Shown in pieces: positions 31,702 through 56,870 of a stretch of 64,000 nucleotides of DNA. Position 1 is the first letter of the stretch; every line of letters starts with the position of its first letter. The notes below the pieces were generated by a model. The model saw only the letters and a list, made by a program, of their open reading frames with translations, was not told where the DNA came from and did not search any database. Location: contig CM000430.1 of the NCBI GenBank assembly GCA_000165345.1, positions 384,001 through 448,000 on the forward strand. Direction: 5' to 3'. A program made the position numbers and the translations under genes.

Positions 31702-32129
31702 TTAATAATTAATGAATAAAAAGTCTAATTAAAATAAGTATAGACTGGTGCCTAAACATTAAACTACCTTTTTGAACACCAGGACATTAGTTAATTAGAA
31801 ACTAGAATAAAACACAAAATTAACTAATTTGATTCATTTTGAAATATTGTGTGAATTAATCTTGAGAATGCACCTTCTTAAATTAGTTAATTTTGAAAAT
31901 TTTTATTTACTAAGTTCATGTAAAATTGATACTTCAATCAAATTATTCCTTATTTGGCTTTTAAAACAGATTTTATATATCTTCATAAGACATTCTTTTT
32001 TAAACAATGTGATAAATAGTTGTTTTTTTGATGCCGCCATTTATATGACCCTTAATTATTCATAAAAATTTCATTAATACGGAGATGAATTAGCTTTTGG
32101 CTCCGCAAAAAGTTGCGTTTGTAGTAATA

Positions 32130-34259: not shown

Positions 34260-34307
34260 TCCTTAAATTTTTGCTTTAAATCTATCGTATAGATGTAAAA
34301 TTTTTTT

Positions 34308-35885
34308 TCAAACGCTGTCTAATATTTCTAATACCTTACCAACTGCAATAGTTTTTCCCTCATCTCTCAATGTAAATCTTCCTAACTGAGGGCACTTAGC
34401 AAATTCTTCAATGCAAAGAGGATTGGTAAGGGACATGTTGCATGTCAACATATATTGAGATTTTACGAATGCAGGCCTACTCTTCTTTTTTTTCGTTGAT
34501 AATTCAACTCCTTCCAATAATTCCTCAATGCAGACCTCTTCACAAGATGTGTTACAGTGAATAATGCATTCATATCCACTTGTTATTAGCGGCCTTTGTT
34601 CTAACAGTTCAACAAGAAGCAATTGTGCCTTAAACTTCTTAACCACTGGGCATAAATCGCTTTGGGAGCATAAAACAAAACCTTTAGAAAGTGAGTCTTC
34701 ATCTATATTTAGTAACTTTATTCTTACATTTTCACCTGGGCCAGACCATGCATATTCATCCATTTCTTCTCCAAGACAAATGCTTTGTATTTTTGCCTTA
34801 GCACGATTAGGCATTACAACCAAATTATCGCCACATCTAATTGTTCCTAGTTCTATTTTACCCATTGCAATAACGCCATTATCTCTATAGCCGTCCAACA
34901 AAGGAATACGGATTATACCATTATCTTCATTACCTGACGAGCGATCAGGAACAGATAAATATTTATCTAGAATATCAAACAATGTAGGCTTTTCCATACT
35001 ATACCAAGATGCTCTATGATCAAAATACTTTGGATTAGATTGGTCCGAAACATGATATTTCAAATTTTGACCGAGCTGTCCTGAAATTGGGACAAAAAAT
35101 ATGTCTTTGGCAGGATTATAGCCACAAGTTTTCAAATATGGAGTTAGTTTTTTCTCAATTTCATTATAACGATTTTGATCCCACATGCATGTAGGATCAT
35201 CCATCTTGTTAATTGCAACAATTAATTGATTAACTCCTAGTGTTTTTGCAAGCATTGCGTGCTCTCTAGTCTGACCACCTCTTTCAAAACCAGTCTCAAA
35301 CTCACCTTTCCTAGCAGAAATTATTAATACGCCAATATCCGCTTGACTAGCTCCAGAGATCATATTTGGGACAAAACTTTTGTGGCCAGGGGCATCTAGA
35401 ATAGTGAATCTTCTGTTTTTCAAGTTGAATGCAGCCCTCCCCACTTCCACAGTCTTCCCCTTACTTCTTTCCTCTTCATTTGTATCCATAATAAACGCCA
35501 AAAACCACGACTCCCTATTCTTCTCCTTCGCCTCCCTTTCATACTTTTCCATAGTTCGCTGGTCTACTAATCCGCAAGTATACAAAATATTACCACAAGT
35601 AGTTGATTTACCTGCATCAACGTGCCCAATAAAAACGATATTCATATGAGGTCTTGGATCAGGCTCTAACAAAGAGGCATTTATAGATTTTCCTGATGTA
35701 TTATTAGTTGGTTGCGCTATACCAGAAGCTTGAAATTCATTGTTTGAAAGCGTAGAATTCTTATTATTTTCCGAATCAACGTCATTTTGTAAATTTAAAC
35801 TGGTTTCTAATTTTTGGGAAATCTCTTCGGCTTTTACATCTCCTCCAGAGCTACTGCCCCTTAAAGTGTCCTCCCAGCTATTCAT
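34308..35885 (-). CDS. ERF3: eRF3 / GSPT-like translation termination GTPase
   Basis: NIVFIGHVDAGKSTTCGNILY, TMEKYEREAKEKNRESW, LDAPGHKSFVPNMISGASQADIGVLIISARKGEFETGFERGGQTREHAMLAKTLGV and NKMD show near-identity to eRF3. A start at Met 35885 (MNSWEDT...) is preferred over the ORF-track upstream Met at 35951. The N-terminus is N/S-rich. Confidence 0.85.
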   Translation of the reverse strand: MNSWEDTLRGSSSGGDVKAEEISQKLETSLNLQNDVDSENNKNSTLSNNEFQASGIAQPTNNTSGKSINASLLEPDPRPHMNIVFIGHVDAGKSTTCGNILYTCGLVDQRTMEKYEREAKEKNRESWFLAFIMDTNEEERSKGKTVEVGRAAFNLKNRRFTILDAPGHKSFVPNMISGASQADIGVLIISARKGEFETGFERGGQTREHAMLAKTLGVNQLIVAINKMDDPTCMWDQNRYNEIEKKLTPYLKTCGYNPAKDIFFVPISGQLGQNLKYHVSDQSNPKYFDHRASWYSMEKPTLFDILDKYLSVPDRSSGNEDNGIIRIPLLDGYRDNGVIAMGKIELGTIRCGDNLVVMPNRAKAKIQSICLGEEMDEYAWSGPGENVRIKLLNIDEDSLSKGFVLCSQSDLCPVVKKFKAQLLLVELLEQRPLITSGYECIIHCNTSCEEVCIEELLEGVELSTKKKKSRPAFVKSQYMLTCNMSLTNPLCIEEFAKCPQLGRFTLRDEGKTIAVGKVLEILDSV

Positions 35886-36080
35886 GTTATATTCTAAGTA
35901 GCAACAATTTATGTCGATATTTGATTTTAAGACGCAAATCAATAGACACAAAATTCCAGCGCCAGATGATTAATTGTAAAGGAAATCATTGACCGAAGAT
36001 AATGCGATTGAAATTTTTTAGCAGTTCTGTTTTCTATTAGTGATATAAAGAATTTCACAATATGTAGAGGGAGAAATATC

Positions 36081-37127
36081 TTAAACTAATAATTTTTCAC
36101 ATTGAATAAGTGTAGAATATTCTGGTGAAATATCATCGTCCGGATGTAATTTGCAGTAATCAATTAGGAAAATCATGCGTTTGTTAACTTCTTCTCGGAT
36201 TTTGTCTTTTGATGAACTGCTAAGTTTAGGATTGAAGGCATTAATCAGTTCGAGTAAGGTCTCCGAGATCGTTTCGCCGTATTGAATATTTTGATATTCC
36301 TTGTTAGATATAGAGTTGTTTTTTGAAAGAGTTAAAATAGTATCTATGATCTTACTGTTATTATTTCCAATGATATATTCACTTTTGACTACTCCTTGTA
36401 TTAATAAGTGTCTTAATAGTGACAGTGCTCTTTCACGAACTCCTACATTTTCAGAATGAAGCCACAAAGCAATAAGTGGTATTCCATTATCGGAAATAAA
36501 TGAGCCTTCTAGGGTTTTATTATGGCGTACCAGTGATGATATCGCAGTAATTCCTTTTGATTTATTTGTTTCAGAATCTTCACCTTGAACGCTTTGTTTT
36601 AATAATGATAAAGCTCCTAATTTTGCAAATGAATTTTGTACAGGTAAGTTGTTTTGCATACTCTTTGAAAGTATTTGATATGTAATAGATCTGACTTCTT
36701 CTGAGCGAGACAAACAGCTCAATAATGGTTGAACTATTCCTAATTTCTCAAAGTTTAAGGCACAGTCAGGAAGTTCTACACAACGATCTATTACTGCAAG
36801 TGAGGCAAGCACTTCTTCATCTAAAAAATTTAAGTTTAGTTATTTCACTCCTATTACCAAACTTACCATTCGAAAGACTTAGTTTATCCTTCGCTTCTAA
36901 AATTAATTTATTTGGATCAACCACATTTTTCATAGCTTCTCTAACTGCTCCCTGAAGAAATTCCAATCTTTCTGGGTCAATGTGCCTAATATTAGAATTA
37001 GAATATGTATCCTCTATAAAAATATGTATTACAATTAATAAATAATAAATAGGGTACTTTTATACAGTAATTCGAACATACCAATGTATCTTGAAGACCA
37101 TTTCAAAAGTTGTGACCAGTCGAACAT
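36081..37127 (-). CDS. FES1: Hsp70 nucleotide-exchange factor Fes1 / HspBP1-like (armadillo repeats), 3 exons
   Basis: Exons on the minus strand: 37127-37082 (MFDWSQLLKWSSRYI, with donor GTATGT), 37013-36867 (EDTYSNSNIRHIDPERLEFLQGAVREAMKNVVDPNKLILEAKDKLSLSN) and 36820-36081. The introns are 68 and 46 nt. The body ALNFEKLGIVQPLLSCLSRSEEVR...KSKGITAISSLVRHN...GIPLIALWLHSENVGVRERALSLLRHLL aligns with HspBP1 ARM repeats. The ORF track shows only the last exon, and its M is a GTG. Confidence 0.7.
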
Positions 37128-37285
37128 TTTTATAAATAAAATGAAAAGCAAATAATACCATGGCGCGTTGAAGTTGCATAAATAATATCGTTCTTTTCCT
37201 CTTTATAAAAATTGACCAATAACTATATTAATTGAAAAAGCTATAAATGTTTAACTATAACTTTTAGTTAATATTCAGACAAAAT

Positions 37286-40200
37286 ATGAGTTTTAAAGTA
37301 GAAAGTAATCTTGTTCGCTCAAGTACCTTAAAAAGTTACAATAAATCTTATATCAAGAAAACTAGAAGAGGGAAGATTAGAAAAGTCTCAAATGAAATTT
37401 ATGTTAGAAACGAGATACTATGCGGACTTAATTTTTGCACTTTGTGTTACGGGAAATATTCGGGTATTTCAAACCAAAAAGCTCGGAATATTATTTTTCC
37501 TAACTTTGATATATTTAATAAATACAGCGACTTCATTTTAGAAGATGAATCTTTAAATCACGTGGTGATTCCGTATTCAATACTCGACTATTTGAATGAG
37601 ACAGATAGAACCGTTATTAATAAATTAAGAAATAAACTTAGAAACCAAAATGAATTACCAATATTTAAAGAAATTGAACTGACGAGTGAAAATAACTTGT
37701 TTGATTATAATGTTAATCAGTATATTCGATTTCCAGACACGCAATTCACTGAAACATGTTTGAATCACTCAATTAGTAGATTTAATTTTGAAGATTGTGC
37801 TGGAAATTCAATTATAAAAGTAGCTATCTGGTTTATTAATCATTTATCAAAATCCAATATAAATATTCGTTTCTATATTTTGACAGAAAATGAAGAATGG
37901 ATCAAAAAATTTACTTCTAATTTATCATTTGACTCAAAATGTTTTATTGTAAATCCATATGAATATATTAATTTTGTCTCAAACGAATATGTAAATTCTG
38001 GTGATAAACTTCCTTTCAAAACATCGTTGGTGAATGATAATAGCCAACCAGAAAATAATTGCATTTTCACAGAATATGCCTCAGAAAGAGAGATTTTACA
38101 AGGAATTGACAGAGGAGTTTTATTTAAAGGCATATTGCGAATGATTTCTAGAAATAGGGGCGAAATAGAAGTAACAAACAAAAATAGAAAAATGACCGTT
38201 AATATAATTGGGCACCTTAATTTAAATAGGTCTATAGATGGTGACTTAGTTGTTGTTAAACTTGATGAAACATTAAATTGTGATGAAAAGAACTTAAAAT
38301 CCAAAATCAAATCTGAATTGGAGCTTGATCAAATAGAGGATTTTGAACATAGTGAAATAGCGGGAATAGGAAGTATTTTATTAGGAGATGACGATTATGA
38401 CGAAAATTCAGCATTAAACATCCAAAATATTAGCATTCAGAGTATAGAGAATGAAGATAATAATTCATTAGCTTTTTCTGAAAATACCAATTTTTCTGGG
38501 AGGGTTATTGGGGTATTAAGTCGCAATTGGGGTGAGTATTGTGGCTCTTTGGTTCCGATTAATTCAAATGACGATCGATTTAATATTTGCAACAACACCT
38601 CCACAAGGCAACATCGGATTTTTGTTCCAATCGACCCGAAAATACCAAAGATTATAATTCATACAAAACTTTCATCCACTATTGAAAATCAGAGACTAGT
38701 TGTAGTAATTGATGAATGGGACTGCTCATCATTTTATCCCACTGGGCATATAGTAGGAGTATTGGGTAAAGCTGGAGATCTTGAAACAGAAACTTCCGTA
38801 ATTTTACGTATAAGAGATATAAATTCATCTGAATTTTCTCCATCTGTTTTGAAATGCCTTCCAAATAATGATAGAAACGATGATTGGAAGCCGAATGAAA
38901 TTGACTTTAGAGATAGAGTTGATCTAAGAAATAAGTTAGTTTTTTCTGTAGATCCCCCAGGATGCAAAGACATTGATGATGCTCTAAGTATTGAATTGAT
39001 CAACCCAAATGATGATAATTCTCAAGAAAAGTGGTATCTTGTTTCTGTTCATATTGCTGATGTAACGCATTTTGTTAAGCCTAACACTCCAATAGATGAT
39101 GAAGCATCCAGAAGATCTAATACATGTTATCTTGTAAACAAAAGGATAGATATGCTCCCAGAAGAACTCACAACAAATATATGTTCTTTAGTTTCAAATA
39201 AAGATAGATTATCCTTCACATGTAATTGGGAAATTAACGAGAACGCAGAAATTAGAAATGTATACTTTAATAAAACAATAATAAATTCCAAGTACTCTTT
39301 CACATATCTTCAAGCACAAAATATCATTGATGACAAGTGCAACAATTCAGAAATAGCAATTTCTCTAAGAAGACTAATGAAAATTTCTCAAGTTTTAAGG
39401 AAAAATAGAATTAGTCGTGGTGCGATTGAACTCTCTTCTTCAGAAGTAAAAGTTGATTTTGAGGAATCCAGAAACTTATATCAAGACTTAAATCACAATG
39501 ATTTGGGCAAAGAACAAATTTCATCAGTAATTTTGAATATAAAAAATGTATACGCATATAATTATTTGAATACGAACTCAATGGTTGAGGAGTTTATGTT
39601 ATTGGCAAATGTTTCTGTTGCAAGGCAAATCATTTCAAAATTTCCAAACTGTTGTTTATTAAGAAGGCATCCTGAACCAAAGTACGATCAATTAGAGAAG
39701 CTTAAATATGTCCTTTCAAAAGTTGGAATCAGTAATTTTACCTATGAAAATTCATTAAGCTTATCTAACAGTTTGAAAAATATTCTAGATTCAGAAATTA
39801 TAAAGAAAAATCCCATTATTGGAAAATTGGTTCGAATTTTGACAACGCGTACAATGAATCAAGCATTATACTTCACAACTTGCAAATCTGTGGAGGGAAC
39901 ATTTCATTATGGCCTTGCAGAGGAAATATATACTCACTTTACTTCTCCTATTAGAAGATATGCTGATATTATTGTTCATCGTCTACTTTCGGCTTCTATT
40001 GGACTAGAGCCACTATGCGAATTAATTTTTGACAAAGACTATGTAAGTTCATGATATTTTAAATTTATTTTTATTCATTATTATTTTAGATGTTTAAGTT
40101 ATCAAATACGCTCAATAAAAATAAAAGAAATGCTCAAATGGCTGGTAGAGATTCAACAAGACTATTTATTTACCTTTTTTGTAAGCAAAACGGTAATCAA

Positions 40201-43030: not shown

Positions 43031-46000
43031 TCATTTAGTTTTGTTCCATGGCCCCTCTTCTACTCCAGGACAGATCGACTGTGCCATGTGCAGGTTGTTT
43101 TGTGAAATATATTTTGACGTATGGAGATTGCTTGCAGCCTTGTTTGAGAGCTCACTGGCTATTGGTTCTATTGTTTCGCCTTGACCTGTAGGATTGTTTA
43201 ACATTCCCGAATTAGATTTCATTTGTAGTATAATCGGCCCAATATCTGGAAGCGACGAGAGTAGACTTCCATCACGATAGCGCAGATTAAGTAGGCCGTT
43301 CAGAGTTACAAACGCAGTTTTCAGAAATGACTCATTTACGCCAAATGTGCACGTTTCTCTAACCAACTCCGCGTAATTTTGCACATGCTTAAGCATCTCA
43401 TAGTACTCTGATTGTTGCTCATGAAGTGTTCTGAAATAAAAGTTTGCAGCAGCCCCATCAAATTGTATAGGCCCAGGGTTGCAAAAGCGGTCTTGCATTG
43501 CCCAATGTTCCTGAACGATTTTTAACCAACGATATGCTTTACCTTTCAGATCCACTTCACTAGAAGGAATTGTAGGAATGTTGCTTGGGAGTTCAGGATG
43601 GGTCTCATCGTTGGAAGGAACAATTTTCATTAGGCAATTAAATGGTATTGCTGTCATTCTCCAATCGGAAACATCGCCGCACAACCCTCTAATAGAACAA
43701 AGATGGCCTGTTAGTCCGCTCTCAACAACTATCGAAGCAAAATGCCCAAGCGCATACCCTAGCTTTGCATCAAACTGTGATGGCATAGCAGATCTACCCT
43801 GATATCCAAAAAAGTGTGTAAACGGCTGAAAATTGCCATTATATTTATTATCTTGTTTTCTTTTCTTAAGCTCCTTTTTTATCATTAAAACAAGAAGTGC
43901 CTCGGTCTCTATCGCGGAAAATGCAGAGTCAACATCTAATGAAAGTATTTCTCTTCTAATGAACCTAGGTAATGACTTAAATAATGCGAGACTCCAGGGA
44001 GTCATTTTAGAAGAGTATTTACTTCCATCAAAGCTATCTGTAGGGCTATGTTCCTGATTCGCAGCCGAACTTTTGTTATCAGCCACATCTACGCGAGAGC
44101 TTTTTTCTTGGCTATTTGTGTGATCGGACAATGTGGGGTGATCGCTGTGTCCCAAACTCATCATTTCAGACATAAATAATTTCATCTCGGAATGTTCTTC
44201 AGCGAATCTTCGTAATTCATTTATTTCAGAAATTAAAATCTTCATATCTGGTAAATGTGAAAGTAATGCATCTGGAATGAGTACAGTTCCGAAGTTCTTT
44301 CCAAACTCCGCTCTCTTACATATTACATCTGCCACATCTTCTACGATGTGAACAAGAGTTTTATCAGCTGCTCCATATTCTTCAGCAATTATTACAACAT
44401 TTGGATGTGTCTGTAGTGCGCACTCCAGAACTTCATTTGAAGGTTGCCTTCCCATTAATCTAATAAAATGCCAATATTTAGGCATTGAAGCAGCATCCGT
44501 TAATACATTTCCAATTAAGCTTGCATACAATTTAGTGCTTGAATCAAACCCTACGCATGCCTCTACTAGATCATTTGCTAAGTTGTTAGACGCAGTTGCT
44601 GGGACGCCAACAACCTTAGTATTACAGTTATTTTGTAGAAAATACTCTGCCAAGATTGCGCCCTGGGTCATTCCAAATGCAGAGCCACACAATACAAGGC
44701 CATCCAAATGTAAACTTTCACAAACCTTTCTAGCCTTTTCCAAATTCTCTTTCGAAACTAAACACTCTGTATACGTTCTTCCAATTAATTCCGATCCTCC
44801 TTGATTTGGCAAAAGATCTACATCTTTCTCAGTAAGTGTAATATGCTTCCCTTGCAAAAATCCTTTAACTCCATAAAAGCCCAAACATCTTCCCCTTACC
44901 ATTTTCAGACGGTGGTATAGTCCCCATACCACATTTGCAATTCCAGGTGCTTGTCTAGACATAAGCAATACTCCTATTCTCAACCCTACATTGGGCTCTT
45001 CAGATGAAATGTCAAGTTGCGCTTCTTGGCAATAAAAGTGATTTGAATTACATAAATGAGGATAACAGGTTGTAATCTGTCTTTTTATCAGAGGATCAGA
45101 TAAATTATATTGAGTAGTCGGTTTACATCTTGCTTTAAGGTGGGTAAGTAGCAGTGGCAACGGAGGTCTATATGTTGTGCGATAAAGTTGGAGAGAGGAG
45201 AGGGTTCCCTGAATTCTATTAAATACACCTCTTTTCCCTCCCCCATTATTTGGTTGTACAATATTTATATCAGTATCTGTAACTGAGGCATCCTCTCCGC
45301 ATAATAAATCTTGTAACTCCGGCGTTCTTACAATATAAGGGATAGTTTCAGAGCATGGGCCTTCGAATTGTAAAGGTCCAGGCGCCCTATATAAATCTTG
45401 AAACTTCCAAATATCTCGAACCTGTTTTAATAGTTTGAAAAGTGGCCCATTCAAATCGACTAACTGACGAGTAACTGCAGCATAGCACTGACCGTCTTGT
45501 CTGGATTTTTTAACTTCCATAATTCTAGTAATACTTATACCGCATGCTTGCCAACTAAGAGGATTCCCTTCTAATCCTCTTATAACTGCCAAGTAACCAT
45601 TCATACCTTTATAAACCAACGCTCCTGCGCAATGGCCCAGTGCGTAACAATAGTTAGAATCAAAATTAGATGGCATGGCGCATCTTCCTTCATAACCCAA
45701 ATAATGATGCATCATTGTAAATCCAAAAGGCATCAGTATTGAGCCATTTGACTTATTTGAAATTTCTACCTGATCTGAAATTGTTTCCTTGGTTTGGCCA
45801 TGTTCAAAATCATAATAGAAAGATGTTCCATGCCTCCTATGTAACTCTGCTTCAACAAGTAGTATAAGTAATCTCTCTGTTGCTATTTTTGCAACTTGTA
45901 TTTGGCCAGTAGCCTCTCTATCAAGTAACAATTGCTCTCTAATATTTTCTGGAAGGTACTCCCAAATTTTTGCAGAAGACTCCGAAAGACAACTGCATAT

Positions 46001-47311
46001 CTTTTTATCAAAGTCGTCAGGTGAAGCTTCCTGATCGCATTCAGACCCCTCATACTTTAACTTATCAAGGATTTCATTTAATTCTTGAATTAAAATTTTC
46101 ATTTCTGGGATAAACTCAATTAAGCCTTCAGGTATTAATATTATGCCATACATTTTGCCCATTTTTGAACGCTCTTCCATTAAATCTACAATATTCTTCA
46201 CTATTTCAAATAATGTTATTCCTTCTTGTTCAACTTCTTCTGCAATGAAAACAATATTTGGTCTTGTTTGCAATGCGACTTCCAGAGCCAAATGCGATGC
46301 TGATCTACCCATAACTCTTACGAAGTGATAGACATTTTGTGATGTACAAATGTCTGAGCAAAGATTACCTACGCACTCAGCGTAAGTCCTCGCAGCAGTA
46401 TCAAATCCAAAAGAGACTTCAATAGCAGGGTTTTTTAAATCTCCATCAATAGTTTTTGGGACCCCTACAATACAAAAATTTTTGTTTTTCTTTGCCATGT
46501 AATCCGCGATCAACGCAGCATTTGAATTTGAGCCATCACCTCCAATAACAATTAATCCATGTAATTGAAGCTGCTCGCAAACTTTTTCAACTCTTTCCAA
46601 ATCTTGCTCTCCATTAATTCTCCCTCTACCAGACCAAAGCATATCAAAACCTCCTTGGTTTCTAAATCGATCCATTAATTCATCTGAAATAACCTTATAA
46701 GTTGATTTGAAAAGACCATCTAACCCACCTAAAAATCCGAATAGCTGGCTATCAGGGTGATGATTCTTAATAAAATCATATACACCGCAAATGACATTAT
46801 GTCCGCCAGGTGCAGGACCACCTGATAATACAATTCCAACTCTAAGAGCATGGTCTGAATTCTCCGAGTTCTTTGATTCATCTCGAGTTATTTCAATGCA
46901 TGGTCTCCCAAATGTGTTCGGTAACAATTCTTTGAGTTTATTCTCATCTTTTTGGATCAAGTCAGGAATTTCAATCTCTTTTATTTTTATGCAGTTTGAA
47001 GATAAGGAATATGGCAATGTTGGCACCCATTTTTGTCTTTCTAATTGCACGGGACTAAAGTTTTCAAAGAGATCTGCTGAGTGCAAATGAGGTTTTCCAC
47101 CCATTGACAATTTAAATGAGTCTAACCTAGTTGCAATATTACGTTCTATTGAATCTCTTCTACGAATATGCTTTTGAGACGTTATCGCTTTAGAAATTAA
47201 TGGAATACTACGTTCTTTATCGATATGAGTGTCTTCAAGTATTACAGCCAAACTTCTAAGCCGGCGAATAGCATTTCTTTGGCTTCTGTTCATTTCTCCA
47301 TTCAAAAACAT
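43031..47311 (-). CDS. PFK: Pyrophosphate-dependent phosphofructokinase, fused tandem double-domain form (1426 aa)
   Basis: Single 4281-nt ORF with ATG at 47311. The N-terminal half has the catalytic motifs IVIGGDGSNSNAALIADYMAKK, KTIDGD and VMGRSASHLALE. The C-terminal half repeats the fold (VGVPATASNNL, LMGRQPSNEVLE) but has CGSAFG in place of GGDGS. The fused 1400-aa-class PPi-PFK architecture is typical of apicomplexans. Confidence 0.9.
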   Translation of the reverse strand: MFLNGEMNRSQRNAIRRLRSLAVILEDTHIDKERSIPLISKAITSQKHIRRRDSIERNIATRLDSFKLSMGGKPHLHSADLFENFSPVQLERQKWVPTLPYSLSSNCIKIKEIEIPDLIQKDENKLKELLPNTFGRPCIEITRDESKNSENSDHALRVGIVLSGGPAPGGHNVICGVYDFIKNHHPDSQLFGFLGGLDGLFKSTYKVISDELMDRFRNQGGFDMLWSGRGRINGEQDLERVEKVCEQLQLHGLIVIGGDGSNSNAALIADYMAKKNKNFCIVGVPKTIDGDLKNPAIEVSFGFDTAARTYAECVGNLCSDICTSQNVYHFVRVMGRSASHLALEVALQTRPNIVFIAEEVEQEGITLFEIVKNIVDLMEERSKMGKMYGIILIPEGLIEFIPEMKILIQELNEILDKLKYEGSECDQEASPDDFDKKICSCLSESSAKIWEYLPENIREQLLLDREATGQIQVAKIATERLLILLVEAELHRRHGTSFYYDFEHGQTKETISDQVEISNKSNGSILMPFGFTMMHHYLGYEGRCAMPSNFDSNYCYALGHCAGALVYKGMNGYLAVIRGLEGNPLSWQACGISITRIMEVKKSRQDGQCYAAVTRQLVDLNGPLFKLLKQVRDIWKFQDLYRAPGPLQFEGPCSETIPYIVRTPELQDLLCGEDASVTDTDINIVQPNNGGGKRGVFNRIQGTLSSLQLYRTTYRPPLPLLLTHLKARCKPTTQYNLSDPLIKRQITTCYPHLCNSNHFYCQEAQLDISSEEPNVGLRIGVLLMSRQAPGIANVVWGLYHRLKMVRGRCLGFYGVKGFLQGKHITLTEKDVDLLPNQGGSELIGRTYTECLVSKENLEKARKVCESLHLDGLVLCGSAFGMTQGAILAEYFLQNNCNTKVVGVPATASNNLANDLVEACVGFDSSTKLYASLIGNVLTDAASMPKYWHFIRLMGRQPSNEVLECALQTHPNVVIIAEEYGAADKTLVHIVEDVADVICKRAEFGKNFGTVLIPDALLSHLPDMKILISEINELRRFAEEHSEMKLFMSEMMSLGHSDHPTLSDHTNSQEKSSRVDVADNKSSAANQEHSPTDSFDGSKYSSKMTPWSLALFKSLPRFIRREILSLDVDSAFSAIETEALLVLMIKKELKKRKQDNKYNGNFQPFTHFFGYQGRSAMPSQFDAKLGYALGHFASIVVESGLTGHLCSIRGLCGDVSDWRMTAIPFNCLMKIVPSNDETHPELPSNIPTIPSSEVDLKGKAYRWLKIVQEHWAMQDRFCNPGPIQFDGAAANFYFRTLHEQQSEYYEMLKHVQNYAELVRETCTFGVNESFLKTAFVTLNGLLNLRYRDGSLLSSLPDIGPIILQMKSNSGMLNNPTGQGETIEPIASELSNKAASNLHTSKYISQNNLHMAQSICPGVEEGPWNKTK

Positions 47312-47888
47312 TGAATTAACAAAATATATATAATATATTTTAAAAAATGAGTATTAGAGCTTCTGGCTGTAATACCGATTATGGTAAAATAAACAACCAA
47401 TATTTAATTTTGTTACTTAGATTTGATTTTAATAAAAATAAACACAAAGAAATGATACTAATTACACACAAACCCTATTAATTTATATCGTCACTCATAT
47501 TGAAACATATGCATCAGGATAATCTCCCGCCAATGAATTGAATTCCTATTAAACTTTTTTATGTTTTTAAAGCCTACTCAGAAATTATTTTTCTAAAATA
47601 TATGATTAATCTTTTAATTGACAATATATGCTTGCTATTAATTCAATTATATTTATCTTCAGTTGAAGTAAATTACATTTTTCTATGTTAAAAATTATTT
47701 TTGGTTCCCATTTTTTAATATTATCGTTATATTTGAAAAATGTATACCCCTATGCCAAATTTGATCTTGAATAGCTTATTAAATGTGTAATTTAATGAAC
47801 TATCTTATTCTAAAATTTTTTTTTTTTTAGAGGGCAAATTTGCGCCATCTAGATATTACATTACATGTAAATATTAGGCTTTTAGATC

Positions 47889-50800
47889 ATGTATTTCCAA
47901 CGCCAAGAAGTAATTGGATCGCCACCTATTCTTGCATCAATAAGATCAATTTTTTCTAATGAATCTAAGAAAGACAAATTGGGTCCAACATACCAGCTTT
48001 TTGTTGGAATAGGATATATATTTTATTTAATTATTTTTATGATTGTCATTACTAAAGTAATTCAGCCTAATGAAGAATATTCGTCAATATATAGTATTCA
48101 GAATGTACTAAAATCTGCAAATTGGAACCCTGACTTATCAACACCTAAAAATTCTATGCTATATAATATTCAGACAAATGGAGATATTCAAAATTGGATA
48201 TATTATGTTTTGGGCCCACCACTTTTAAATGGTCATATTGCAGATCAAAACCAAATTATTGGAGCCTCTCTAACAAAATGTGTCGGAGAATATATCAGTA
48301 ATGCAGTAGAAAATCAATATATTCCTTCAGACTATGGTGTTGTCAAGGTTCTCAGCCAAAGTAATTGTAAAAAAACCAAATTAAACTTAGTTTCAAGGAT
48401 TGCTTCTCCATATAAATACATGGAAGCTTTTTTTGATTCTTCTAAGGATTACGTTATTCAAGAAATCGAATCCAATCCTGAATTGCCAGTATTACCAAAG
48501 TTATTTAATAAAACAGATATAATTTCCTATACAGCAGAACTATTATTTTATAATGGAAATATTGACACATACAGCGTTGTATCATTTTCGTTCAATCTTT
48601 CTATCTTCGGTACATTTATCGTTGATGTATTATCTCAAAGCGCTTCGCCTATCAAAAAATATATTGGGTTTCCATGCGATGGAAGTTGTAATATAAATAT
48701 TACTCAGATAACTAAATCTGCGCTTTTTTTTACATATTGTGTTGTTTTTATTCTTCATTTGATATCAGGAATTATACTGCTCATTTCTAGTGCATCAGGG
48801 TCCCCAAGTTATTCATCCAAAGAGTCTGAAAGAAACGGTTTGGGGATTGAATCTTGGTCAAATTACTTTAAAGAAAGGTCGCTTTCTATTGCAATTCGAA
48901 TTTCTCACTTTTCTGTAATTTTATTATGGATTTCATCCGCAGTTTTAGTACAACTACTTCCAAACCAATCCCTAAAAAATATTTTAGAGCAAAGTAACCA
49001 AGCAGCAGAAAAGATCAATTTAAACCAATCATCCGAAATGCCACTATTAAATTCCATTATCTATACAATTAAAATTGCTTCAATTATAAAATTTACTGGA
49101 ACCGTAATTGCATGTATTGCATCACTTTTAATGCTGTTTAGGATCTTTCAGATTTTTTCATCTCTTTTTTCTCAAGTTAACGTTCCGCTAAAGACAATAA
49201 TGTTATTTTTTAGAAAAATTATTGGAATATTTTTTCTTATCAACCTAATTATTTTGACATTGGCACTTGGAATTATTATTTATTTACATATTGACAAGTA
49301 TTCACCAAATATTAAAGGAATTAAAGAGTCTATAAGTACCTCAATTTTTTCTATTATGCTTGCACCAATTTCTATTAGCCTGCAGGAGGAAACTACCGAA
49401 GAGACAATCTATAAAGTTCCAACAGTTATTTTTTTATCAATCGTATTGGGGATTCTAACTTTATACCTCCTATTAATTCCACTATCAACTGCCACCATAA
49501 TGTTTATTTACAATGAAGTTGAAATTCTTCAATCTTTAAAACAAAACACAGATAATATTTACACGATCAAAACGACTCTTAGTGCTTGGATTCAACAAAT
49601 TTTTTTTCTTTCAACATTCTGGCAATCAAAAAAAGTCTGGTCATTTTCGTCTCAATCGAATGACAAGGCCATAAAAATAAATCATGATATACAAAATGAG
49701 ATTGAGGCACAACACCAACAAGAAAGTAACAGTTTTGCAAAAGAAATCATTTTGAACCAAGGGGTAAACAAAACTAATAAAATGGACGAAAAAGGCATAA
49801 ATCAAGTGATACAACAAAAAAAGAAACAGTTTAAAAAATTTTTTGAGTTGCCTCCAAAGCTTGAATATATTCCATACCATCTTTTTTTCTTAATTGTACT
49901 ATTTTCCATAGTTTCTATACTATGGATTATTAATATAGCAAACTACCAGCTTCATACTGAAACAGGCGAAGTTATTTGGAAGATTCTCGATTCGCCTTTT
50001 AGAGCAAGATCATTCTATACATTTGATCCAACTTTGGATTTCTTCCCATACATGTTTAAAGATTGTTCTAAAAAAGATGAAAATCTCAATTTCTTATATG
50101 ACAAAAACCAGTTATCTAAAATTCCAGGAGAACTTCTCTACGGGCTATATCAGTCATACAGGCTCACAAATATTACTTCATTAAGTCACCTAAATTCATG
50201 GATTCAAAAAATTTTTATTCCGTTGATAAAAACAAAAAATACTCAGATTTCAGAAAAAAAGAATTTTTTGATAGATCTTGGCCATCCAACACTCTATTCA
50301 ACAGTTAACCCAATGTTATTATTTAAACAACATTTTAGTCCCGTTAAATGCAATTCTAATCCAATTTCGTCTGGATTATATTTAAGTACAATCTCTAGAT
50401 CAAAAAGCTCATTAAGCATTAAAGACATTTCAAATTTCAATCCATTGTCAGTAAATAATGTCCCAACTTCATTATCTGTTCCAAAGACCCAAATTCAAAA
50501 AATCAGAAATATATTCGCACGTATTCTTAAATTAGTGAATTTTAATCAGGGAATATTCAGTAGAGAGTTAACTACTTCTGCGGAAAAGAGTTCTCATATG
50601 GAGTCAACTCTATCAAGCTCAGGAGTAGATAGAATATTTTTTTTATATGCAGGTAAAGAATCAGAAATTTCCGAACAGTTTAATAAATCTTTACATGGGA
50701 ATGATGAAGGAAACTTATTTTGGGTTATAAGGTCTTATTCTCTTTCTACTGGAAGCGATGTAAATGTCGACTTAATCACTTCATTAGATTCGTTTGCTTC

Positions 50801-53345
50801 AAATGAAGACTTTAACATTCCTTTTGATGGTTTGTTTGATTATAGTATGGATACTCTAGAAATTTACTTCCCGATTATTATTCCAAATCAAAATTCTGTT
50901 TCATTGATAAAGTTAAAATTTGAACTTCTACGTACTGGGAAAATTGAAATTGAATATTCTTTTGATTTTGTGAAACATGAATGGATCAAACAAACTCTTG
51001 ATCAAAATGGGATTTATATTGATTCAAAAAATCAAGAAATTTCAGAAGATGTTGATGGAAATGAAAATGGAAGTGAAAACCAAGTCAAAGACTCGAATTC
51101 AAATTCAGGAATCTGGGTTTTTTCATTTGTTCTGATTGGGATACAGTGTTTTATTTTCCTAATATTCCTTATATTGGTCATTTACAATTTTTATAGAAAA
51201 AGATTATTAAGAAAAAGACTAATGAATCAAATAAATTATAAAATGGATATTTCAGAATCAGAAAGTGAAAGTGAAATACAAAAAAAAAAGAAAATTCGAA
51301 AACTTGGAATCAGAAAAATTGCAAGAAAAATCGGTAGAAAAGAAATAGAAAACGAGCAAACAACAATCAAAAAACAAAAACTAGAAACATTTGGAAATGT
51401 ACACTTAAATGAAAAAAAAAATGTTTTAGAATTTAGGAAAAAAAAGTTAGCACACAAGAAACAGAACAAAGAAATTAAAGAGGAAATCACTGATTCCAAG
51501 CAAATAGTTGAGGAAGAATTATACGATGAAGATATATTAAGTTTGTACAAGCTAAGTAATTTTAACATTTTAATTATTGTAATAATGTTAATTGCATTTT
51601 TCGTATTATTTTTTTCTTCAATCGCATATTATATTTTAATAATATCCACAAAAATTTCGATTAACATTAATTCAATTGATATTGAGGGTGGTTTTAATTC
51701 GATTGCTTCATCACATGGAGATCCATTGCCCTGGGAGATAGAAATATCAAACTTGAATGATATCAATTCGAAACTAAATATGATCGGTTCTAGTTCAGGT
51801 TTTTATAACGACAACGTGTTTTCCTTCAGTAATTTATTTGAAACAATAAATAACATACAAGAAATAAGCGGATACTTTGAGATGTTTGAAATAATCGGAG
51901 TTTTTCTTATTATCACATATTTATCCATTATTTTTATATACTCCAGCTTACTTGTTGATCGTCATCGTCGTGCAAAAATATTAAAGATGAGGCGTTACAT
52001 GGAAAAAACTGGGAAGAAACTAACTGGAAATTCATTCGAATCCCTCTCAGTGTTTACATTCATGGATACAACATCCCAAAGAGGTTTTAGCTGGAATGAT
52101 GCAAATTACGCACTTTTTCCTATTTTTTGTGTTGTTGCTTCAATTATTCTGATTTTTTCTTTGACAGGATATTCGATATTAGGCTATCAGGAGGCAACAT
52201 ATTTTTCATATTACTATTCAGTAATAAGCTCCCTATTAATGATTTTTAATTATAACAGTGTAAAGCAAGTAATGATGACGTCAATTACTCCAGATATATC
52301 AATTAGATTTAAATCAAATATTATTACATTTATTTGGAAGCCATTATATTATTTATTAACGTTTTTTACCTTTAATTTTATTTTAAAGGCATTAATTCCT
52401 GCTTCCATAATTTTTTATATGCGTTCAGTTGCATCTAAGAACTTGCAAATTTCACAGGATACTCTACTTTCAAAGTTAAATAATGTTGCAGTTACAAGAC
52501 CATCAATTCCAGTATTCACAAATGATTGCATCTCATTAAGAATGAAATTTTTTATCAAGGCACTTTATAAAAAATTAGGAAAATTTAAAAAATTTGATAT
52601 GAATTTAATGAAAGGTAACACAATTGAAGAGCAAAATGAAACAGAAGTAAATTTAACGGAAGGGAATCCTGACTGGATCTTTGCAAAATTAATACCGGAG
52701 CTTTTTAATGAAATAATTCATTATAAACTAAATATTGCAGAGCTTGTCAACAAAGACCAGCAGGGAATACAGGAAATAAGAGATTATTTAGGTAATATAT
52801 CACTCCAATTATTGTTAATTCAAGAACATTTAGTGAAGATTGAGTTTTTGAGATGTAAACTTTCAATGATAAGACAAGAATTGATGAAAATTGAAGATGT
52901 TAAAAAAGATATATCAAGAGGAAATAGAGAGTCTCAACACTATATTGATCGACTTTTACAGCGATTAATGAGTATTAATGATGAAATCGAACATTTGGAT
53001 GAAAGTAACAGAGTTTTAGGGCAAGAAAAAGAAACTGTTAAACAAAAAACATCAAGCGTCGCTGCAAACTATACTCTTCAAAAAGAAAAAGAAAAATTCT
53101 CAACTAATTTCTTGTTTGAATACGGTAATTCATATGCCAAAACATTATTTGAAAATTCCAAAATTAACGATATTGTCAGTAGCGATGAATATTCCAACGA
53201 AGATTCAGATGAACGCAAAGATCTTGATGAAACAAATAGAAATAGGGTCTCTGCAAATAATAACACAAAAAAAAGTATAATTAATTACATCGATAAAAGC
53301 GACAAAGACGATAGCAAAGTCAAGAATATTTGGAAAAGAGACTAA
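47889..53345 (+). CDS. Very large multi-pass membrane protein (1818 aa) with C-terminal coiled-coil; possibly polycystin/TRP-like
   Basis: Continuous 5.4-kb ORF. TM1 LFVGIGYIFYLIIFMIVITKVI is followed by a 200-aa Cys- and N-glycosylation-site-rich loop, then a cluster of about 6 TM helices. A second TM cluster lies between about aa 1060 and 1420. The C-terminal coiled-coil (LQLLLIQEHLVKIEFLRCKLSMIRQELMKIEDVKKD...) and a Lys-rich linker (RKRLMNQ...KKKKIRKLGIRKIARKIGRKE) follow. No channel signature could be confirmed by eye. Confidence 0.6.
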   Translation: MYFQRQEVIGSPPILASIRSIFSNESKKDKLGPTYQLFVGIGYIFYLIIFMIVITKVIQPNEEYSSIYSIQNVLKSANWNPDLSTPKNSMLYNIQTNGDIQNWIYYVLGPPLLNGHIADQNQIIGASLTKCVGEYISNAVENQYIPSDYGVVKVLSQSNCKKTKLNLVSRIASPYKYMEAFFDSSKDYVIQEIESNPELPVLPKLFNKTDIISYTAELLFYNGNIDTYSVVSFSFNLSIFGTFIVDVLSQSASPIKKYIGFPCDGSCNINITQITKSALFFTYCVVFILHLISGIILLISSASGSPSYSSKESERNGLGIESWSNYFKERSLSIAIRISHFSVILLWISSAVLVQLLPNQSLKNILEQSNQAAEKINLNQSSEMPLLNSIIYTIKIASIIKFTGTVIACIASLLMLFRIFQIFSSLFSQVNVPLKTIMLFFRKIIGIFFLINLIILTLALGIIIYLHIDKYSPNIKGIKESISTSIFSIMLAPISISLQEETTEETIYKVPTVIFLSIVLGILTLYLLLIPLSTATIMFIYNEVEILQSLKQNTDNIYTIKTTLSAWIQQIFFLSTFWQSKKVWSFSSQSNDKAIKINHDIQNEIEAQHQQESNSFAKEIILNQGVNKTNKMDEKGINQVIQQKKKQFKKFFELPPKLEYIPYHLFFLIVLFSIVSILWIINIANYQLHTETGEVIWKILDSPFRARSFYTFDPTLDFFPYMFKDCSKKDENLNFLYDKNQLSKIPGELLYGLYQSYRLTNITSLSHLNSWIQKIFIPLIKTKNTQISEKKNFLIDLGHPTLYSTVNPMLLFKQHFSPVKCNSNPISSGLYLSTISRSKSSLSIKDISNFNPLSVNNVPTSLSVPKTQIQKIRNIFARILKLVNFNQGIFSRELTTSAEKSSHMESTLSSSGVDRIFFLYAGKESEISEQFNKSLHGNDEGNLFWVIRSYSLSTGSDVNVDLITSLDSFASNEDFNIPFDGLFDYSMDTLEIYFPIIIPNQNSVSLIKLKFELLRTGKIEIEYSFDFVKHEWIKQTLDQNGIYIDSKNQEISEDVDGNENGSENQVKDSNSNSGIWVFSFVLIGIQCFIFLIFLILVIYNFYRKRLLRKRLMNQINYKMDISESESESEIQKKKKIRKLGIRKIARKIGRKEIENEQTTIKKQKLETFGNVHLNEKKNVLEFRKKKLAHKKQNKEIKEEITDSKQIVEEELYDEDILSLYKLSNFNILIIVIMLIAFFVLFFSSIAYYILIISTKISININSIDIEGGFNSIASSHGDPLPWEIEISNLNDINSKLNMIGSSSGFYNDNVFSFSNLFETINNIQEISGYFEMFEIIGVFLIITYLSIIFIYSSLLVDRHRRAKILKMRRYMEKTGKKLTGNSFESLSVFTFMDTTSQRGFSWNDANYALFPIFCVVASIILIFSLTGYSILGYQEATYFSYYYSVISSLLMIFNYNSVKQVMMTSITPDISIRFKSNIITFIWKPLYYLLTFFTFNFILKALIPASIIFYMRSVASKNLQISQDTLLSKLNNVAVTRPSIPVFTNDCISLRMKFFIKALYKKLGKFKKFDMNLMKGNTIEEQNETEVNLTEGNPDWIFAKLIPELFNEIIHYKLNIAELVNKDQQGIQEIRDYLGNISLQLLLIQEHLVKIEFLRCKLSMIRQELMKIEDVKKDISRGNRESQHYIDRLLQRLMSINDEIEHLDESNRVLGQEKETVKQKTSSVAANYTLQKEKEKFSTNFLFEYGNSYAKTLFENSKINDIVSSDEYSNEDSDERKDLDETNRNRVSANNNTKKSIINYIDKSDKDDSKVKNIWKRD

Positions 53346-56766: not shown

Positions 56767-56870
56767 AATATTATTTCCAAAATATGAATATTCTAAAATT
56801 TAGATACATCTATCGTGATAAATTAATTTATACAGTTTTTGGTAACCTTTTGGGGGGCAGCGGGATTAAA

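What the first reader, a model, noticed from the sequence alone, without database searches (positions are those of the whole stretch)
43031..47311. Fused double PPi-PFK whose C-terminal half has lost the GGDGS catalytic motif
The 1426-aa ORF contains two complete PFK folds. The N-terminal half keeps IVIGGDGS, KTIDGD and MGR. The C-terminal half keeps MGR and the overall fold but has CGSAFG where GGDGS should be. This mirrors the catalytic-beta / regulatory-alpha split of plant PPi-PFK subunits, fused into one chain. It bears on which half binds fructose-6-phosphate and PPi, and whether the degenerate half is allosteric. The fused architecture is a lineage marker for apicomplexans.
Basis: partly seen in the sequence, partly recalled or inferred. 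Interest (0 to 1): 0.5.

Follow-up and report, generated by a model that had tools for sequence, protein, structure and literature searches.

The report
Known Cryptosporidium two-domain phosphofructokinase gene
This is the already annotated Cryptosporidium parvum phosphofructokinase gene cgd2_2130, a fused enzyme with an active-looking first half and a conserved second half that has lost its catalytic residues, as already described in Toxoplasma and Plasmodium.

Summary
It is 100% identical to C. parvum Iowa II EAK88781.1, and I infer it is gene cgd2_2130.

Both halves match the long Borrelia-type PFK over nearly its whole length. The N-half keeps GGPAPG, IVIGGDGS, KTIDGD and MGR. The C-half has SRQAPG, CGSAFG and ATASNN but keeps MGR and GYQGR. 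It has therefore lost the Mg-binding Asp, the general-base Asp and the Lys. It is nevertheless as conserved as the N-half.

- The architecture is published: an inactive but essential pseudo-PFK domain in Toxoplasma PFK2, and beta/alpha domains in Plasmodium PFK9.
- The fusion is not an apicomplexan marker. Vitrella, ciliates and stramenopiles have it.
- 'PPi-PFK' is doubtful. The N-half has the ATP-type GGDG and groups (bootstrap 100%) with Plasmodium PFK9 and the Toxoplasma GGDG enzyme I equate with PFK1, both reported ATP-dependent. A second Cryptosporidium paralogue carries the PPi-type GGDD.

The C-half shares derived signatures with the plant alpha subunit.

Verdict: already known, low interest.

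The parts
43031..47311 (-). Complete CDS, 1426 aa plus TGA stop. C. parvum phosphofructokinase, inferred to be cgd2_2130 ('PFK2'); no introns.
   Evidence: ORF list and translation. Exact identity to EAK88781.1. The gene id is inferred from PMC1779779 Table 1: an upstream length of 575 bp against the 577-bp intergenic gap here.
47075..47311 (-). N-terminal extension, aa 1-79, before the PFK fold.
   Evidence: The domain match begins at aa 80 in all Cryptosporidium orthologues.
45272..47074 (-). N-half, aa 80-680: beta-like, catalytically intact long PFK domain.
   Evidence: Matches 1kzh residues 4-551. TIGR02477 and PF00365 hits.
46805..46822 (-). GGPAPG phosphate-binding loop of the N-half, aa 164-169 (E. 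coli G10-G15).
   Evidence: Alignment to E. coli PfkA.
46529..46552 (-). IVIGGDGS, aa 254-261. Contains the Asp equivalent to E. coli Asp103 and the Gly that marks ATP-type enzymes (GGDG rather than GGDD).
   Evidence: Signature meaning from PMC12203962 and PMC8836295.
46439..46456 (-). KTIDGD, aa 286-291. Contains the Lys203 equivalent, the general base (E. coli Asp127) and the Asp129 equivalent.
46304..46312 (-). MGR of the N-half, aa 334-336 (E. coli M169-R171).
45221..45271 (-). Short linker between the halves, aa 681-697.
   Evidence: Gap between the domain envelopes.
43382..45220 (-). C-half, aa 698-1310: alpha-like PFK domain with a complete fold and a degenerate active site.
   Evidence: 1kzh E 1e-88. 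AF2 pLDDT 86.4 and TM 0.91 to 1kzh_A.
44942..44959 (-). SRQAPG, aa 785-790, replacing GGPAPG. The same G-to-R-Q change is seen in the plant alpha subunit (CGRQSPG).
44672..44689 (-). CGSAFG, aa 875-880, replacing IGGDGS. The Asp103 equivalent is Ala and the Gly104 equivalent is Phe.
44582..44599 (-). ATASNN, aa 905-910, replacing KTIDGD. Changes are Lys to Ala, general-base Asp to Ser and Asp129 to Asn; Thr125 is kept. The T-x-S-N-N box recurs in most class A C-halves; in piroplasms it is further altered (VAGSNS, VVSSNG).
44447..44455 (-). MGR retained in the C-half, aa 953-955.
44030..44143 (-). Ser/Asp-rich insert predicted to be disordered, aa 1057-1094. Absent from the Plasmodium, Neospora and Vitrella orthologues.
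   Evidence: pLDDT below 50 for C-half residues 360-397. Alignment gap in other taxa.
43793..43807 (-). GYQGR, aa 1169-1173, for GYEGR. The Arg equivalent to E. coli Arg252 is kept, and the Glu-to-Gln change is shared with the plant alpha subunit.
   Evidence: The equivalence to E. coli H249/R252 was made by hand, because MAFFT misaligned this region.
43034..43381 (-). C-terminal tail, aa 1311-1426. It includes a CxFGV segment that is also conserved in class B proteins.
   Evidence: Consensus lines of alignments A1 and A2.
47312..47888 (.). 577-bp intergenic region, presumably a promoter region, shared with the divergently oriented 1818-aa ORF.
   Evidence: ORF list. The promoter role is inferred and was not tested.

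Best explanation
The ORF is the Cryptosporidium parvum phosphofructokinase that I infer to be cgd2_2130. It is a member of the long, Borrelia/plant-PFP-like PFK clade in which a catalytic beta-type domain (N) and a non-catalytic alpha-type domain (C) are fused in one chain.

Shown:
- Both halves have the complete fold.
- The N-half keeps every catalytic and substrate-binding motif examined.
- The C-half has lost the Mg-binding Asp, the general-base Asp, Asp129, the Lys and the Gly-Gly loop. It keeps Thr125, Met-Gly-Arg and the GY(Q)GR arginine.
- The C-half is as conserved as the N-half.

Inferred:
- Phosphoryl transfer to fructose 6-phosphate happens only in the N-half.
- The C-half acts as the built-in partner subunit, taking the place of the second protomer of the Borrelia homodimer or of the plant alpha subunit. 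Its remodelled but conserved pocket probably still binds a phosphorylated sugar or anion for regulation or stability.
- The phosphoryl donor is most likely ATP rather than PPi. The N-half has GGDG and is orthologous to Plasmodium PFK9 and to the Toxoplasma GGDG enzyme I equate with PFK1.
- The PPi-dependent activity reported for Cryptosporidium would then come from the second paralogue (cgd3_1400 type), which carries GGDD.
For: Identity:
- Exact match to EAK88781.1.
- The gene id is supported by the upstream length in PMC1779779.

Fold:
-.

Residue map against E. coli PfkA, read with the mechanism summarised in PMC12203962:
- Asp127 is the general base.
- GGDG and GGDD discriminate the donor.

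Conservation of the C-half:
- It is 93.6, 91.1 and 87.8% identical to C. felis, C. bovis and C. andersoni. The N-half values are 90.5, 87.7 and 79.2%.
- Against Plasmodium the values are 54.1% (C) and 54.0% (N).

Orthology:
- Class A N-halves form a clade with bootstrap 100% and class A C-halves with 99%.
- All class A members share the GGPAPGGHN / WSGRG / GGDGS / VMGRSASH signature.

Experimental anchors from the literature:
- TgPFK2-C is inactive but required in vivo, TgPFK2 (GGDD) uses PPi, and TgPFK1 (GGDG) uses only ATP (PMC8836295).
- That paper lists one C. hominis protein as a 'PFK' beside ATP-dependent PFKs and another as a 'PFP'.
- PfPFK9 is described as ATP-dependent and is assayed with ATP (PMC7733947).

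Second Cryptosporidium paralogue:
- It has GGDDS and groups with class B (88.5% bootstrap).
Against: - No enzyme assay exists for this protein. Annotation and recent literature call both C. parvum isozymes PPi-dependent.
- The N-half keeps the PPi-type Lys (PKTIDGD) and the equivalent of BbuPFK Asn181. It also exceeds the TIGR02477 'PFKA_PPi' cut-off. That model is equally passed by a PfPFK9 orthologue and by the plant alpha subunit.
- Two Plasmodium studies report that the isolated alpha domain is catalytically active. That conflicts with a purely non-catalytic C-half.
- Ligand binding by the C-half pocket is inferred from retained residues only.
- The equation of Toxoplasma P0054 with TgPFK1 is inferred. 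P0054 has GGDG, the paper reports only two PFKs in Toxoplasma, and TgPFK2 has GGDD.
Confidence: 0.8

Rival explanations
1. The protein is a genuine PPi-dependent PFK, as annotated. The GGDG glycine would not switch the donor in this clade.
For: - GenBank names it a pyrophosphate-dependent PFK.
- The TIGR02477 score is 1081.8 bits against a cut-off of 588.
- The Lys of PKTIDGD is retained.
- A 2026 paper lists two PPi-PFK isozymes in C. parvum.
- PPi-PFK expression is reported for C. parvum (abstract of PMC8836295).
Against: - GGDD is the PPi signature and GGDG the ATP signature.
- The Lys is not diagnostic, because ATP-dependent T. brucei PFK has it.
- PfPFK9 and the Toxoplasma GGDG enzyme I equate with PFK1 have identical motifs and are reported ATP-dependent.
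- TIGR02477 is also passed by a PfPFK9 orthologue and by the non-catalytic plant alpha subunit.
- The other Cryptosporidium paralogue has GGDD and can account for the PPi activity.
Confidence: 0.2
2. The C-half is a second active site that works with substituted residues, so both halves would be catalytic, as claimed for the PfPFK9 alpha domain.
For: [quoted passage not shown]
- The C-half is under strong constraint.
- It keeps MGR, Thr125 and the GYQGR arginine.
Against: - The general base Asp127 is Ser, the Mg ligand Asp103 is Ala, Asp129 is Asn, and the Lys and the Gly-Gly loop are lost.
- The same losses occur in the Plasmodium alpha domain (PGSNIT, LTGSNN).
- The corresponding Toxoplasma PFK2 C domain had no detectable activity.
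Confidence: 0.1
3. The C-half is only a structural scaffold. It would be a pseudo-dimer partner with no ligand-binding or regulatory role.
For: - BbuPFK is a homodimer, so a fused partner could simply stabilise the active half.
- In the second Cryptosporidium paralogue and in Cyclospora the C-half has lost even MGR and GYQGR, yet it persists.
- The TgPFK2 N domain alone is as active in vitro as the full-length protein.
Against: - In class A the remodelled pocket residues are themselves largely conserved: SRQxPG, TxSNN, MGRxPS, IPDAL and GYQGRS. In piroplasms these boxes are variants such as SKQAPG, VAGSNS and ILGRYPSL.
- The phosphate-contacting Arg residues are retained.
- That is more constraint than an interface-only role predicts. 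No binding data exist either way.
Confidence: 0.3

Closest known systems
Plasmodium falciparum PFK9 (PF3D7_0915400) and its orthologues, including the Toxoplasma, Neospora and Besnoitia GGDG proteins of about 1400 aa that I equate with TgPFK1
   Same: - Same beta(N)-alpha(C) order and similar length (1417 against 1426 aa).
- About 54% identity in each half.
- Identical GGPAPGGHN, GGDGS, PKTIDGD and VMGRSASH boxes.
- The C-half is degenerate in the same positions: SRQxPG and TxSNN.
- The clade is supported at 100% (N-halves) and 99% (C-halves).
   Different: - The Cryptosporidium protein has a 38-aa disordered insert in the C-half.
- It has no biochemical characterisation.
- GenBank labels it PPi-dependent, whereas PfPFK9 and TgPFK1 are reported ATP-dependent.
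Toxoplasma gondii PFK2 (TGGT1_226960), the essential PPi-PFK
   Same: [quoted passage not shown] The C domain is inactive alone but required in vivo (PMC8836295).
   Different: - TgPFK2 has GGDD.
- Its coccidian counterpart (Cyclospora P0174) groups with class B and with the other Cryptosporidium paralogue (P0166/P0168), at 75.5% bootstrap for the joint clade.
- The C-half of that lineage is far more degenerate, with MGR and GYQGR lost.
Plant PPi-PFK (PFP) alpha and beta subunits
   Same: - The N-half resembles beta (43.5% identity to Arabidopsis beta).
- The C-half shares derived alpha-type signatures with a Musa protein of 618 aa that I infer to be the alpha subunit from its length and its VGGVTS motif. 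These are GRQxPG for GG(Q/P)APG, LGR[ST] for SGR, VGFD for FGFD, GYQ[GA]R for GYEGR, and loss of the GGD aspartate and the general base.
   Different: - Plants encode the two as separate polypeptides, whereas here they are fused.
- Plant beta has GGDD (PPi).
- The NJ tree does not resolve a joint alpha plus C-half clade (5.5% bootstrap).
- Regulation by fructose 2,6-bisphosphate is known for plants (my own knowledge) and is untested here.
Borrelia burgdorferi PPi-PFK (PDB 1KZH/2F48)
   Same: It is the best solved-structure match for both halves. The N-half matches residues 4-551. The C-half matches residues 71-539, and its model superposes with TM 0.91.
   Different: The Borrelia enzyme is a single-domain homodimer with GGDD and intact catalytic residues in every subunit.
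Animal and yeast ATP-PFK (duplicated and fused PFK with a regulatory C-half)
   Same: The same evolutionary logic applies: a tandem PFK fusion in which the C-terminal half lost catalysis and serves stability and allostery (PMC12203962).
   Different: It is an independent fusion of short bacterial-type PFK units and belongs to a different clade. TIGR02478 scores only 87 bits against a cut-off of 708.

Membership tests
PFK-A superfamily (Pfam PF00365) | Significant match to the PFK profile | tested here: met
   PF00365 scores 203.8 bits against a cut-off of 30.9, in two stretches.
Long PFP-like clade (TIGR02477 / BbuPFK type) | Full-length match, including the clade-specific insertion and extensions, in each half | tested here: met
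   TIGR02477 scores 1081.8 bits against a cut-off of 588. The N-half matches 1kzh residues 4-551 and the C-half matches residues 71-539. The C-half model gives TM 0.91 to 1kzh_A.
PPi-dependent PFK (EC 2.7.1.90), functional class | GGDD motif (Asp177 of BbuPFK), which blocks the ATP alpha-phosphate site | tested here: not met
   The N-half has GGDGS (aa 257-261) and the C-half has GSAFG. Signature meaning.
PPi-dependent PFK (EC 2.7.1.90), functional class | Lys in PKTIDxD (Lys203 of BbuPFK) | tested here: met
   PKTIDGD in the N-half. The review notes that this Lys is not diagnostic of the donor.
PPi-dependent PFK (EC 2.7.1.90), functional class | Uses PPi as phosphoryl donor in an assay | not testable with these tools
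   The papers I searched gave no assay for cgd2_2130.
Class A long PFK of Myzozoa (PfPFK9 / TgPFK1 orthogroup; working name used in this report) | Monophyly of both halves with PfPFK9 and the coccidian GGDG proteins | tested here: met
   NJ bootstrap is 100% for the N-halves and 99% for the C-halves.
Class A long PFK of Myzozoa (PfPFK9 / TgPFK1 orthogroup; working name used in this report) | Signature GGPAPGGHN / WSGRG / GGDGS / VMGRSASH in the N-half, and SRQxPG / TxSNN in the C-half | tested here: met
   Motif table.
Class A long PFK of Myzozoa (PfPFK9 / TgPFK1 orthogroup; working name used in this report) | ATP dependence | not testable with these tools
   Known only for PfPFK9 and TgPFK1, from the literature.
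Alpha-type (non-catalytic) PFP subunit or domain | Loss of the Mg-binding Asp and the general-base Asp with the fold retained | tested here: met
   D103 to A, D127 to S and D129 to N. Fold retained.
Alpha-type (non-catalytic) PFP subunit or domain | Common ancestry with the plant alpha subunit | tested here: inconclusive
   Four shared derived signatures. The joint clade has only 5.5% NJ bootstrap.
Alpha-type (non-catalytic) PFP subunit or domain | Regulatory function, such as effector binding or modulation of the catalytic half | not testable with these tools
   The only indirect evidence is that TgPFK2-C is required in vivo.

The most novel reading that the evidence does not exclude
Two readings remain open.

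1. C. parvum, widely described as relying on two PPi-dependent PFKs, may really have one ATP-dependent enzyme (cgd2_2130, this gene) and one PPi-dependent enzyme (cgd3_1400 type). The conserved, remodelled pocket of the alpha-like half (SRQAPG / CGSAFG / ATASNN with MGR and GYQGR retained) could be a new allosteric ligand site and therefore a possible drug target.

2. The alpha/beta split may predate the divergence of plants and SAR, and the beta-alpha fusion may have arisen before the class A / class B duplication. The fusion would then be an ancient SAR-wide character rather than an apicomplexan one.
Probability: 0.45. Interest if true: 0.35.

Novelty: already known. Interest (0 to 1): 0.15.

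Why it matters
Cryptosporidium depends on glycolysis for ATP (PMC6114080), so PFK is a candidate drug target. Whether this isozyme spends ATP or PPi also changes the parasite's energy budget.

The practical value of this check is corrective:
- The gene and its half-dead architecture are already known.
- The fusion is not apicomplexan-specific.
- The 'PPi' label on this particular isozyme is probably a family name rather than a demonstrated donor.

Two questions remain open and are directly testable. One is what the strongly conserved non-catalytic half binds or does. The other is the conflict between the reported activity of Plasmodium alpha domains and the inactivity of the Toxoplasma C domain.

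Tried and rejected
- **Plus-strand reading.** Translating the given coordinates on the plus strand gives only stops. The gene is on the minus strand.
- **Finding the second Cryptosporidium PFK.** Two word-index homology searches listed only the best 120 hits, and neither list contained it or TgPFK2. It was recovered only through the exhaustive representative search plus cluster look-ups. Even then I obtained the orthologues from C. andersoni, muris, xiaoi and bovis, not the C. parvum cgd3_1400 sequence itself.
- **Plant alpha clade.** The NJ tree was meant to show plant alpha grouping with the C-halves. The clade is unresolved at 5.5% bootstrap, so the link rests on shared signatures only. No ML program was available.
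- **E. coli alignment past residue ~225.** MAFFT against E. coli PfkA is unreliable there because of the PFP-specific insertion. I equated H249/R252 with GY(E/Q)GR by hand.
- **Arg72 equivalent in the C-half.** This is ambiguous. MAFFT places it two residues off register, while phmmer aligns GR with GR. I make no claim on it.
- **Sources not held.** The supplement of the 2026 phosphoproteome paper is not held. Mony et al. 2009 is not held either, so it is cited only through PMC6234871 and PMC7733947.
- **Full-length structure.** I considered a full-length AlphaFold model to test N/C packing. I did not run it, because the tool returns no coordinates or interface data.

Full report
**Observation**

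The coordinates 43031-47311 hold a single ORF of 1426 codons. It lies on the minus strand, runs from ATG to TGA, and has no interruption. The plus-strand translation is full of stops.

- N-half: IVIGGDGS at aa 254-261, KTIDGD at aa 286-291, MGR at aa 334-336.
- C-half: CGSAFG at aa 875-880, MGR at aa 953-955.

The KTIDGD box reads ATASNN (aa 905-910) and the GGPAPG loop reads SRQAPG (aa 785-790).

**Identity**

The protein is 100% identical to GenBank EAK88781.1, 'pyrophosphate-dependent phosphofructokinase [Cryptosporidium parvum Iowa II]'. UniRef names the same sequence 'Probable ATP-dependent 6-phosphofructokinase'. It lies on contigs of about 990 kb.

A 2007 paper lists two C. parvum PFK genes: PFK1 = cgd3_1400, and PFK2 = cgd2_2130 with an upstream region of 575 bp (PMC1779779). 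The gap between this ORF and the divergently oriented ORF at 47889 is 577 bp. I therefore infer that this gene is cgd2_2130. The window is ordinary C. parvum sequence, about 30% G+C, with the PFK gene its most G+C-rich part.

**Two complete folds**

- Pfam PF00365 matches in two stretches.
- TIGR02477 scores 1081.8 bits.
- With the whole protein as query, Borrelia burgdorferi PPi-PFK 1kzh is hit at E 1.5e-128, and both matched stretches lie in the N-half (1kzh residues 4-551). The C-half searched alone matches residues 71-539 at E 1e-88.
- The halves are 31.5% identical to each other, E 2e-90.
- An AlphaFold2 model of aa 698-1310, built with a 41-sequence alignment, has mean pLDDT 86.4 and pTM 0.85. 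Foldseek places 1kzh_A first (E 6e-49, TM 0.91 normalised to the target).
- The only long low-confidence stretch is a Ser/Asp-rich insert at aa 1057-1094. Plasmodium, Neospora and Vitrella lack it.

**Active-site map**

I aligned both halves to E. coli PfkA, taken from NC_000913.3.

| E. coli residue | N-half | C-half |
|---|---|---|
| Gly10-Gly11 | kept | Ser-Arg |
| Asp103 | kept | Ala |
| Gly104 | kept | Phe |
| position 124 | Lys | Ala |
| Thr125 | kept | kept |
| Asp127 | kept | Ser |
| Asp129 | kept | Asn |
| Met169-Gly170-Arg171 | kept | kept |
| Glu222 | kept | Asp |
| Arg252 equivalent (GY[E/Q]GR motif) | kept | kept |

Asp127 is the general base of the reaction (PMC12203962). From my own knowledge of the E. 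coli structures, Asp103 ligates Mg, while Arg171, His249 and Arg252 contact the substrate phosphates.

That did not happen. The phosphoryl-transfer machinery is gone, while part of the sugar-phosphate binding set remains.

**The degenerate half is not decaying**

| Compared with C. parvum | C-half identity | N-half identity |
|---|---|---|
| C. felis | 93.6% | 90.5% |
| C. bovis | 91.1% | 87.7% |
| C. andersoni | 87.8% | 79.2% |
| Plasmodium | 54.1% | 54.0% |

. The substituted boxes SRQxPG, TxSNN, MGRxPS, IPDAL and GYQGRS recur in most of the orthogroup, with further-altered variants in piroplasms. This points to a selected, non-catalytic function.

**Relatives and distribution**

All 120 best homologues are themselves double PFKs in the same N-active / C-degenerate order. 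They fall into two classes, A and B, which are working names I use in this report.

- **Class A**, about 1300-1500 aa, with GGPAPGGHN / WSGRG / GGDGS / VMGRSASH. It contains this gene and its Cryptosporidium orthologues. It also contains Plasmodium PFK9, the roughly 1400-aa proteins of Toxoplasma, Neospora, Besnoitia and Eimeria, piroplasms, gregarines and one Vitrella protein.
- **Class B**, about 1150-1250 aa, with GGQAPGGHN / CSGRHKI / GGDDS / LMGRSASH. It contains the second Vitrella protein, gregarines and many ciliates (Paramecium, Blepharisma, Moneuplotes). It also contains the stramenopiles Tribonema and Pinguiococcus.

In NJ trees all N-halves group together and all C-halves group together, and the A/B split is mirrored in both. 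Class A has 100% bootstrap for the N-halves and 99% for the C-halves. The fusion therefore predates the A/B duplication and is at least alveolate-wide, probably SAR-wide. It is not an apicomplexan marker.

**The second Cryptosporidium paralogue**

The exhaustive representative search (5015 hits at E <= 1e-3) and cluster look-ups recovered two relevant clusters. P0166 comes from C. andersoni, C. muris and C. serpentis (1383 aa). P0168 comes from C. xiaoi and C. bovis (1310 aa). Sources name them pyrophosphate-dependent PFK.

Their N-half has GGDDS, KTIDGD and MGR, and it groups with class B at 88.5% bootstrap. Their C-half is far more eroded, with no MGR or GYQGR. The Cyclospora protein P0174 (1176 aa, GGDDS) behaves the same way, and I take it to be the counterpart of TgPFK2.

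**Phosphoryl donor**

- GGDD marks PPi enzymes and GGDG marks ATP enzymes. The Asp occupies the ATP alpha-phosphate site. The Lys of PKTIDxD is not diagnostic (PMC12203962).
- In Toxoplasma, PFK2 (GGDD) used only PPi, and PFK1 (GGDG) was active only with ATP (PMC8836295).
- The methods of that paper list one C. hominis protein (A0A0S4TBK3) as 'ChPFK' beside ATP-dependent PFKs, and another (A0A0S4TCQ1) as 'ChPFP'.
- PfPFK9 is described as ATP-dependent and is assayed with ATP (PMC7733947).

This gene has GGDG and sits in the PfPFK9 clade, so ATP is the likelier donor. That is an inference, because no assay of this protein exists. A 2026 paper still lists two PPi-dependent isozymes.

The TIGR02477 'PFKA_PPi' hit does not decide the question. 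A PfPFK9 orthologue (1090 bits), a coccidian class A protein (1043 bits) and the plant alpha candidate (725 bits) all pass the same cut-off.

**Relation to plant alpha and beta**

The representative set contained an Arabidopsis beta subunit (P0190, GGDDS) and a Musa protein of 618 aa with VGGVTS (P0221). The source leaves P0221 unnamed, and I take it to be the alpha subunit from its length and motif.

The C-half and the SAR C-halves in general share four derived states with this alpha protein:
- [GS]RQxPG in place of GG(Q/P)APG
- LGR[ST] in place of SGR
- VGFD in place of FGFD
- GYQ[GA]R in place of GYEGR

Pairwise identities lean the same way. The C-half is 37.8% identical to alpha and 34.8% to beta. 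The N-half is 40.3% identical to alpha and 43.5% to beta. The NJ tree does not resolve a joint clade (5.5% bootstrap). Common ancestry of the C-half and plant alpha is therefore suggested, not demonstrated. The beta/alpha naming is already used for PfPFK9.

**Mechanism proposed**

Shown:
- The N-half is intact.
- The C-half has lost its catalytic residues but is conserved.

From the literature on relatives:
- The Toxoplasma PFK2 C domain is inactive alone, yet neither domain alone rescues the knock-down.
- BbuPFK works as a homodimer.

Inferred:
- The C-half is the built-in partner protomer of the N-half.
- Its remodelled pocket may bind a phosphorylated ligand.

The main conflict is that isolated Plasmodium alpha domains are reported to be active. 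Those domains lack the same catalytic residues. I rate a catalytic C-half at about 0.1.

**Verdict**

The gene, its two-domain architecture and the dead C-terminal domain are already in the literature and in the annotation. Novelty: already known. Interest is low.

Noticed in passing
Representative-search proteins P0185, P0206 (Digyalum oweni), P0245 (Gymnodinium smaydae), P0276, P0257, P0260, P0272, P0277, P0278, P0287: These are double-PFK proteins of 1220-1450 aa in which neither half has GGD[DG]S, KTIDGD or MGR, so both halves look catalytically dead. They could be relatives of the dispensable Plasmodium PFK11, but I did not test that.
   Followed up: partly
P0166 / P0168 (Cryptosporidium paralogue of the cgd3_1400 type) and P0174 (Cyclospora): In the GGDD paralogue the C-half has eroded much further than in this gene. 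MGR and GYQGR are lost, and the N-terminal part of the domain is not detected. The two paralogues thus keep their alpha-like halves under very different constraint.
   Followed up: partly
window 44030-44143 (-), aa 1057-1094: A Ser/Asp-rich insert predicted to be disordered, absent from the Plasmodium, Neospora and Vitrella orthologues. A 2026 phosphoproteome reports elevated relative phosphorylation of both C. parvum PFK isozymes. The site lists were not available to me.
   Followed up: partly
window 47889-53345 (+): An 1818-aa ORF with no Pfam match. It is oriented divergently from the PFK gene across a 577-bp intergenic region.
   Followed up: no
window 32097-40054 and 53848-58559: Neighbouring housekeeping genes by Pfam: TFIIH Tfb2/p52 (32097-34259, +), an eEF1A-like translational GTPase (34308-35951, -), an RNB/Dis3-like exoribonuclease (37286-40054, +), EMC1 (53848-56766, -) and an NGP1-type nucleolar GTPase (56871-58559, -).
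   Followed up: partly
NCBIfam model TIGR02477 (PFKA_PPi, 'equivalog'): The model's cut-off is passed by a PfPFK9 orthologue (the enzyme is reported ATP-dependent), by a coccidian class A protein, by the Musa plant alpha candidate and by this protein. The name it transfers, diphosphate-dependent, is therefore not reliable for eukaryotic long PFKs.
   Followed up: yes
P0195 (Anaeramoeba flamelloides, 572 aa) and P0222: Single-domain long PFKs carrying GGDGS together with PKTIDGD. The GGDD-to-GGDG change therefore also occurs outside the fused alveolate class A. The grouping of Anaeramoeba with class A has only 38% bootstrap.
   Followed up: partly
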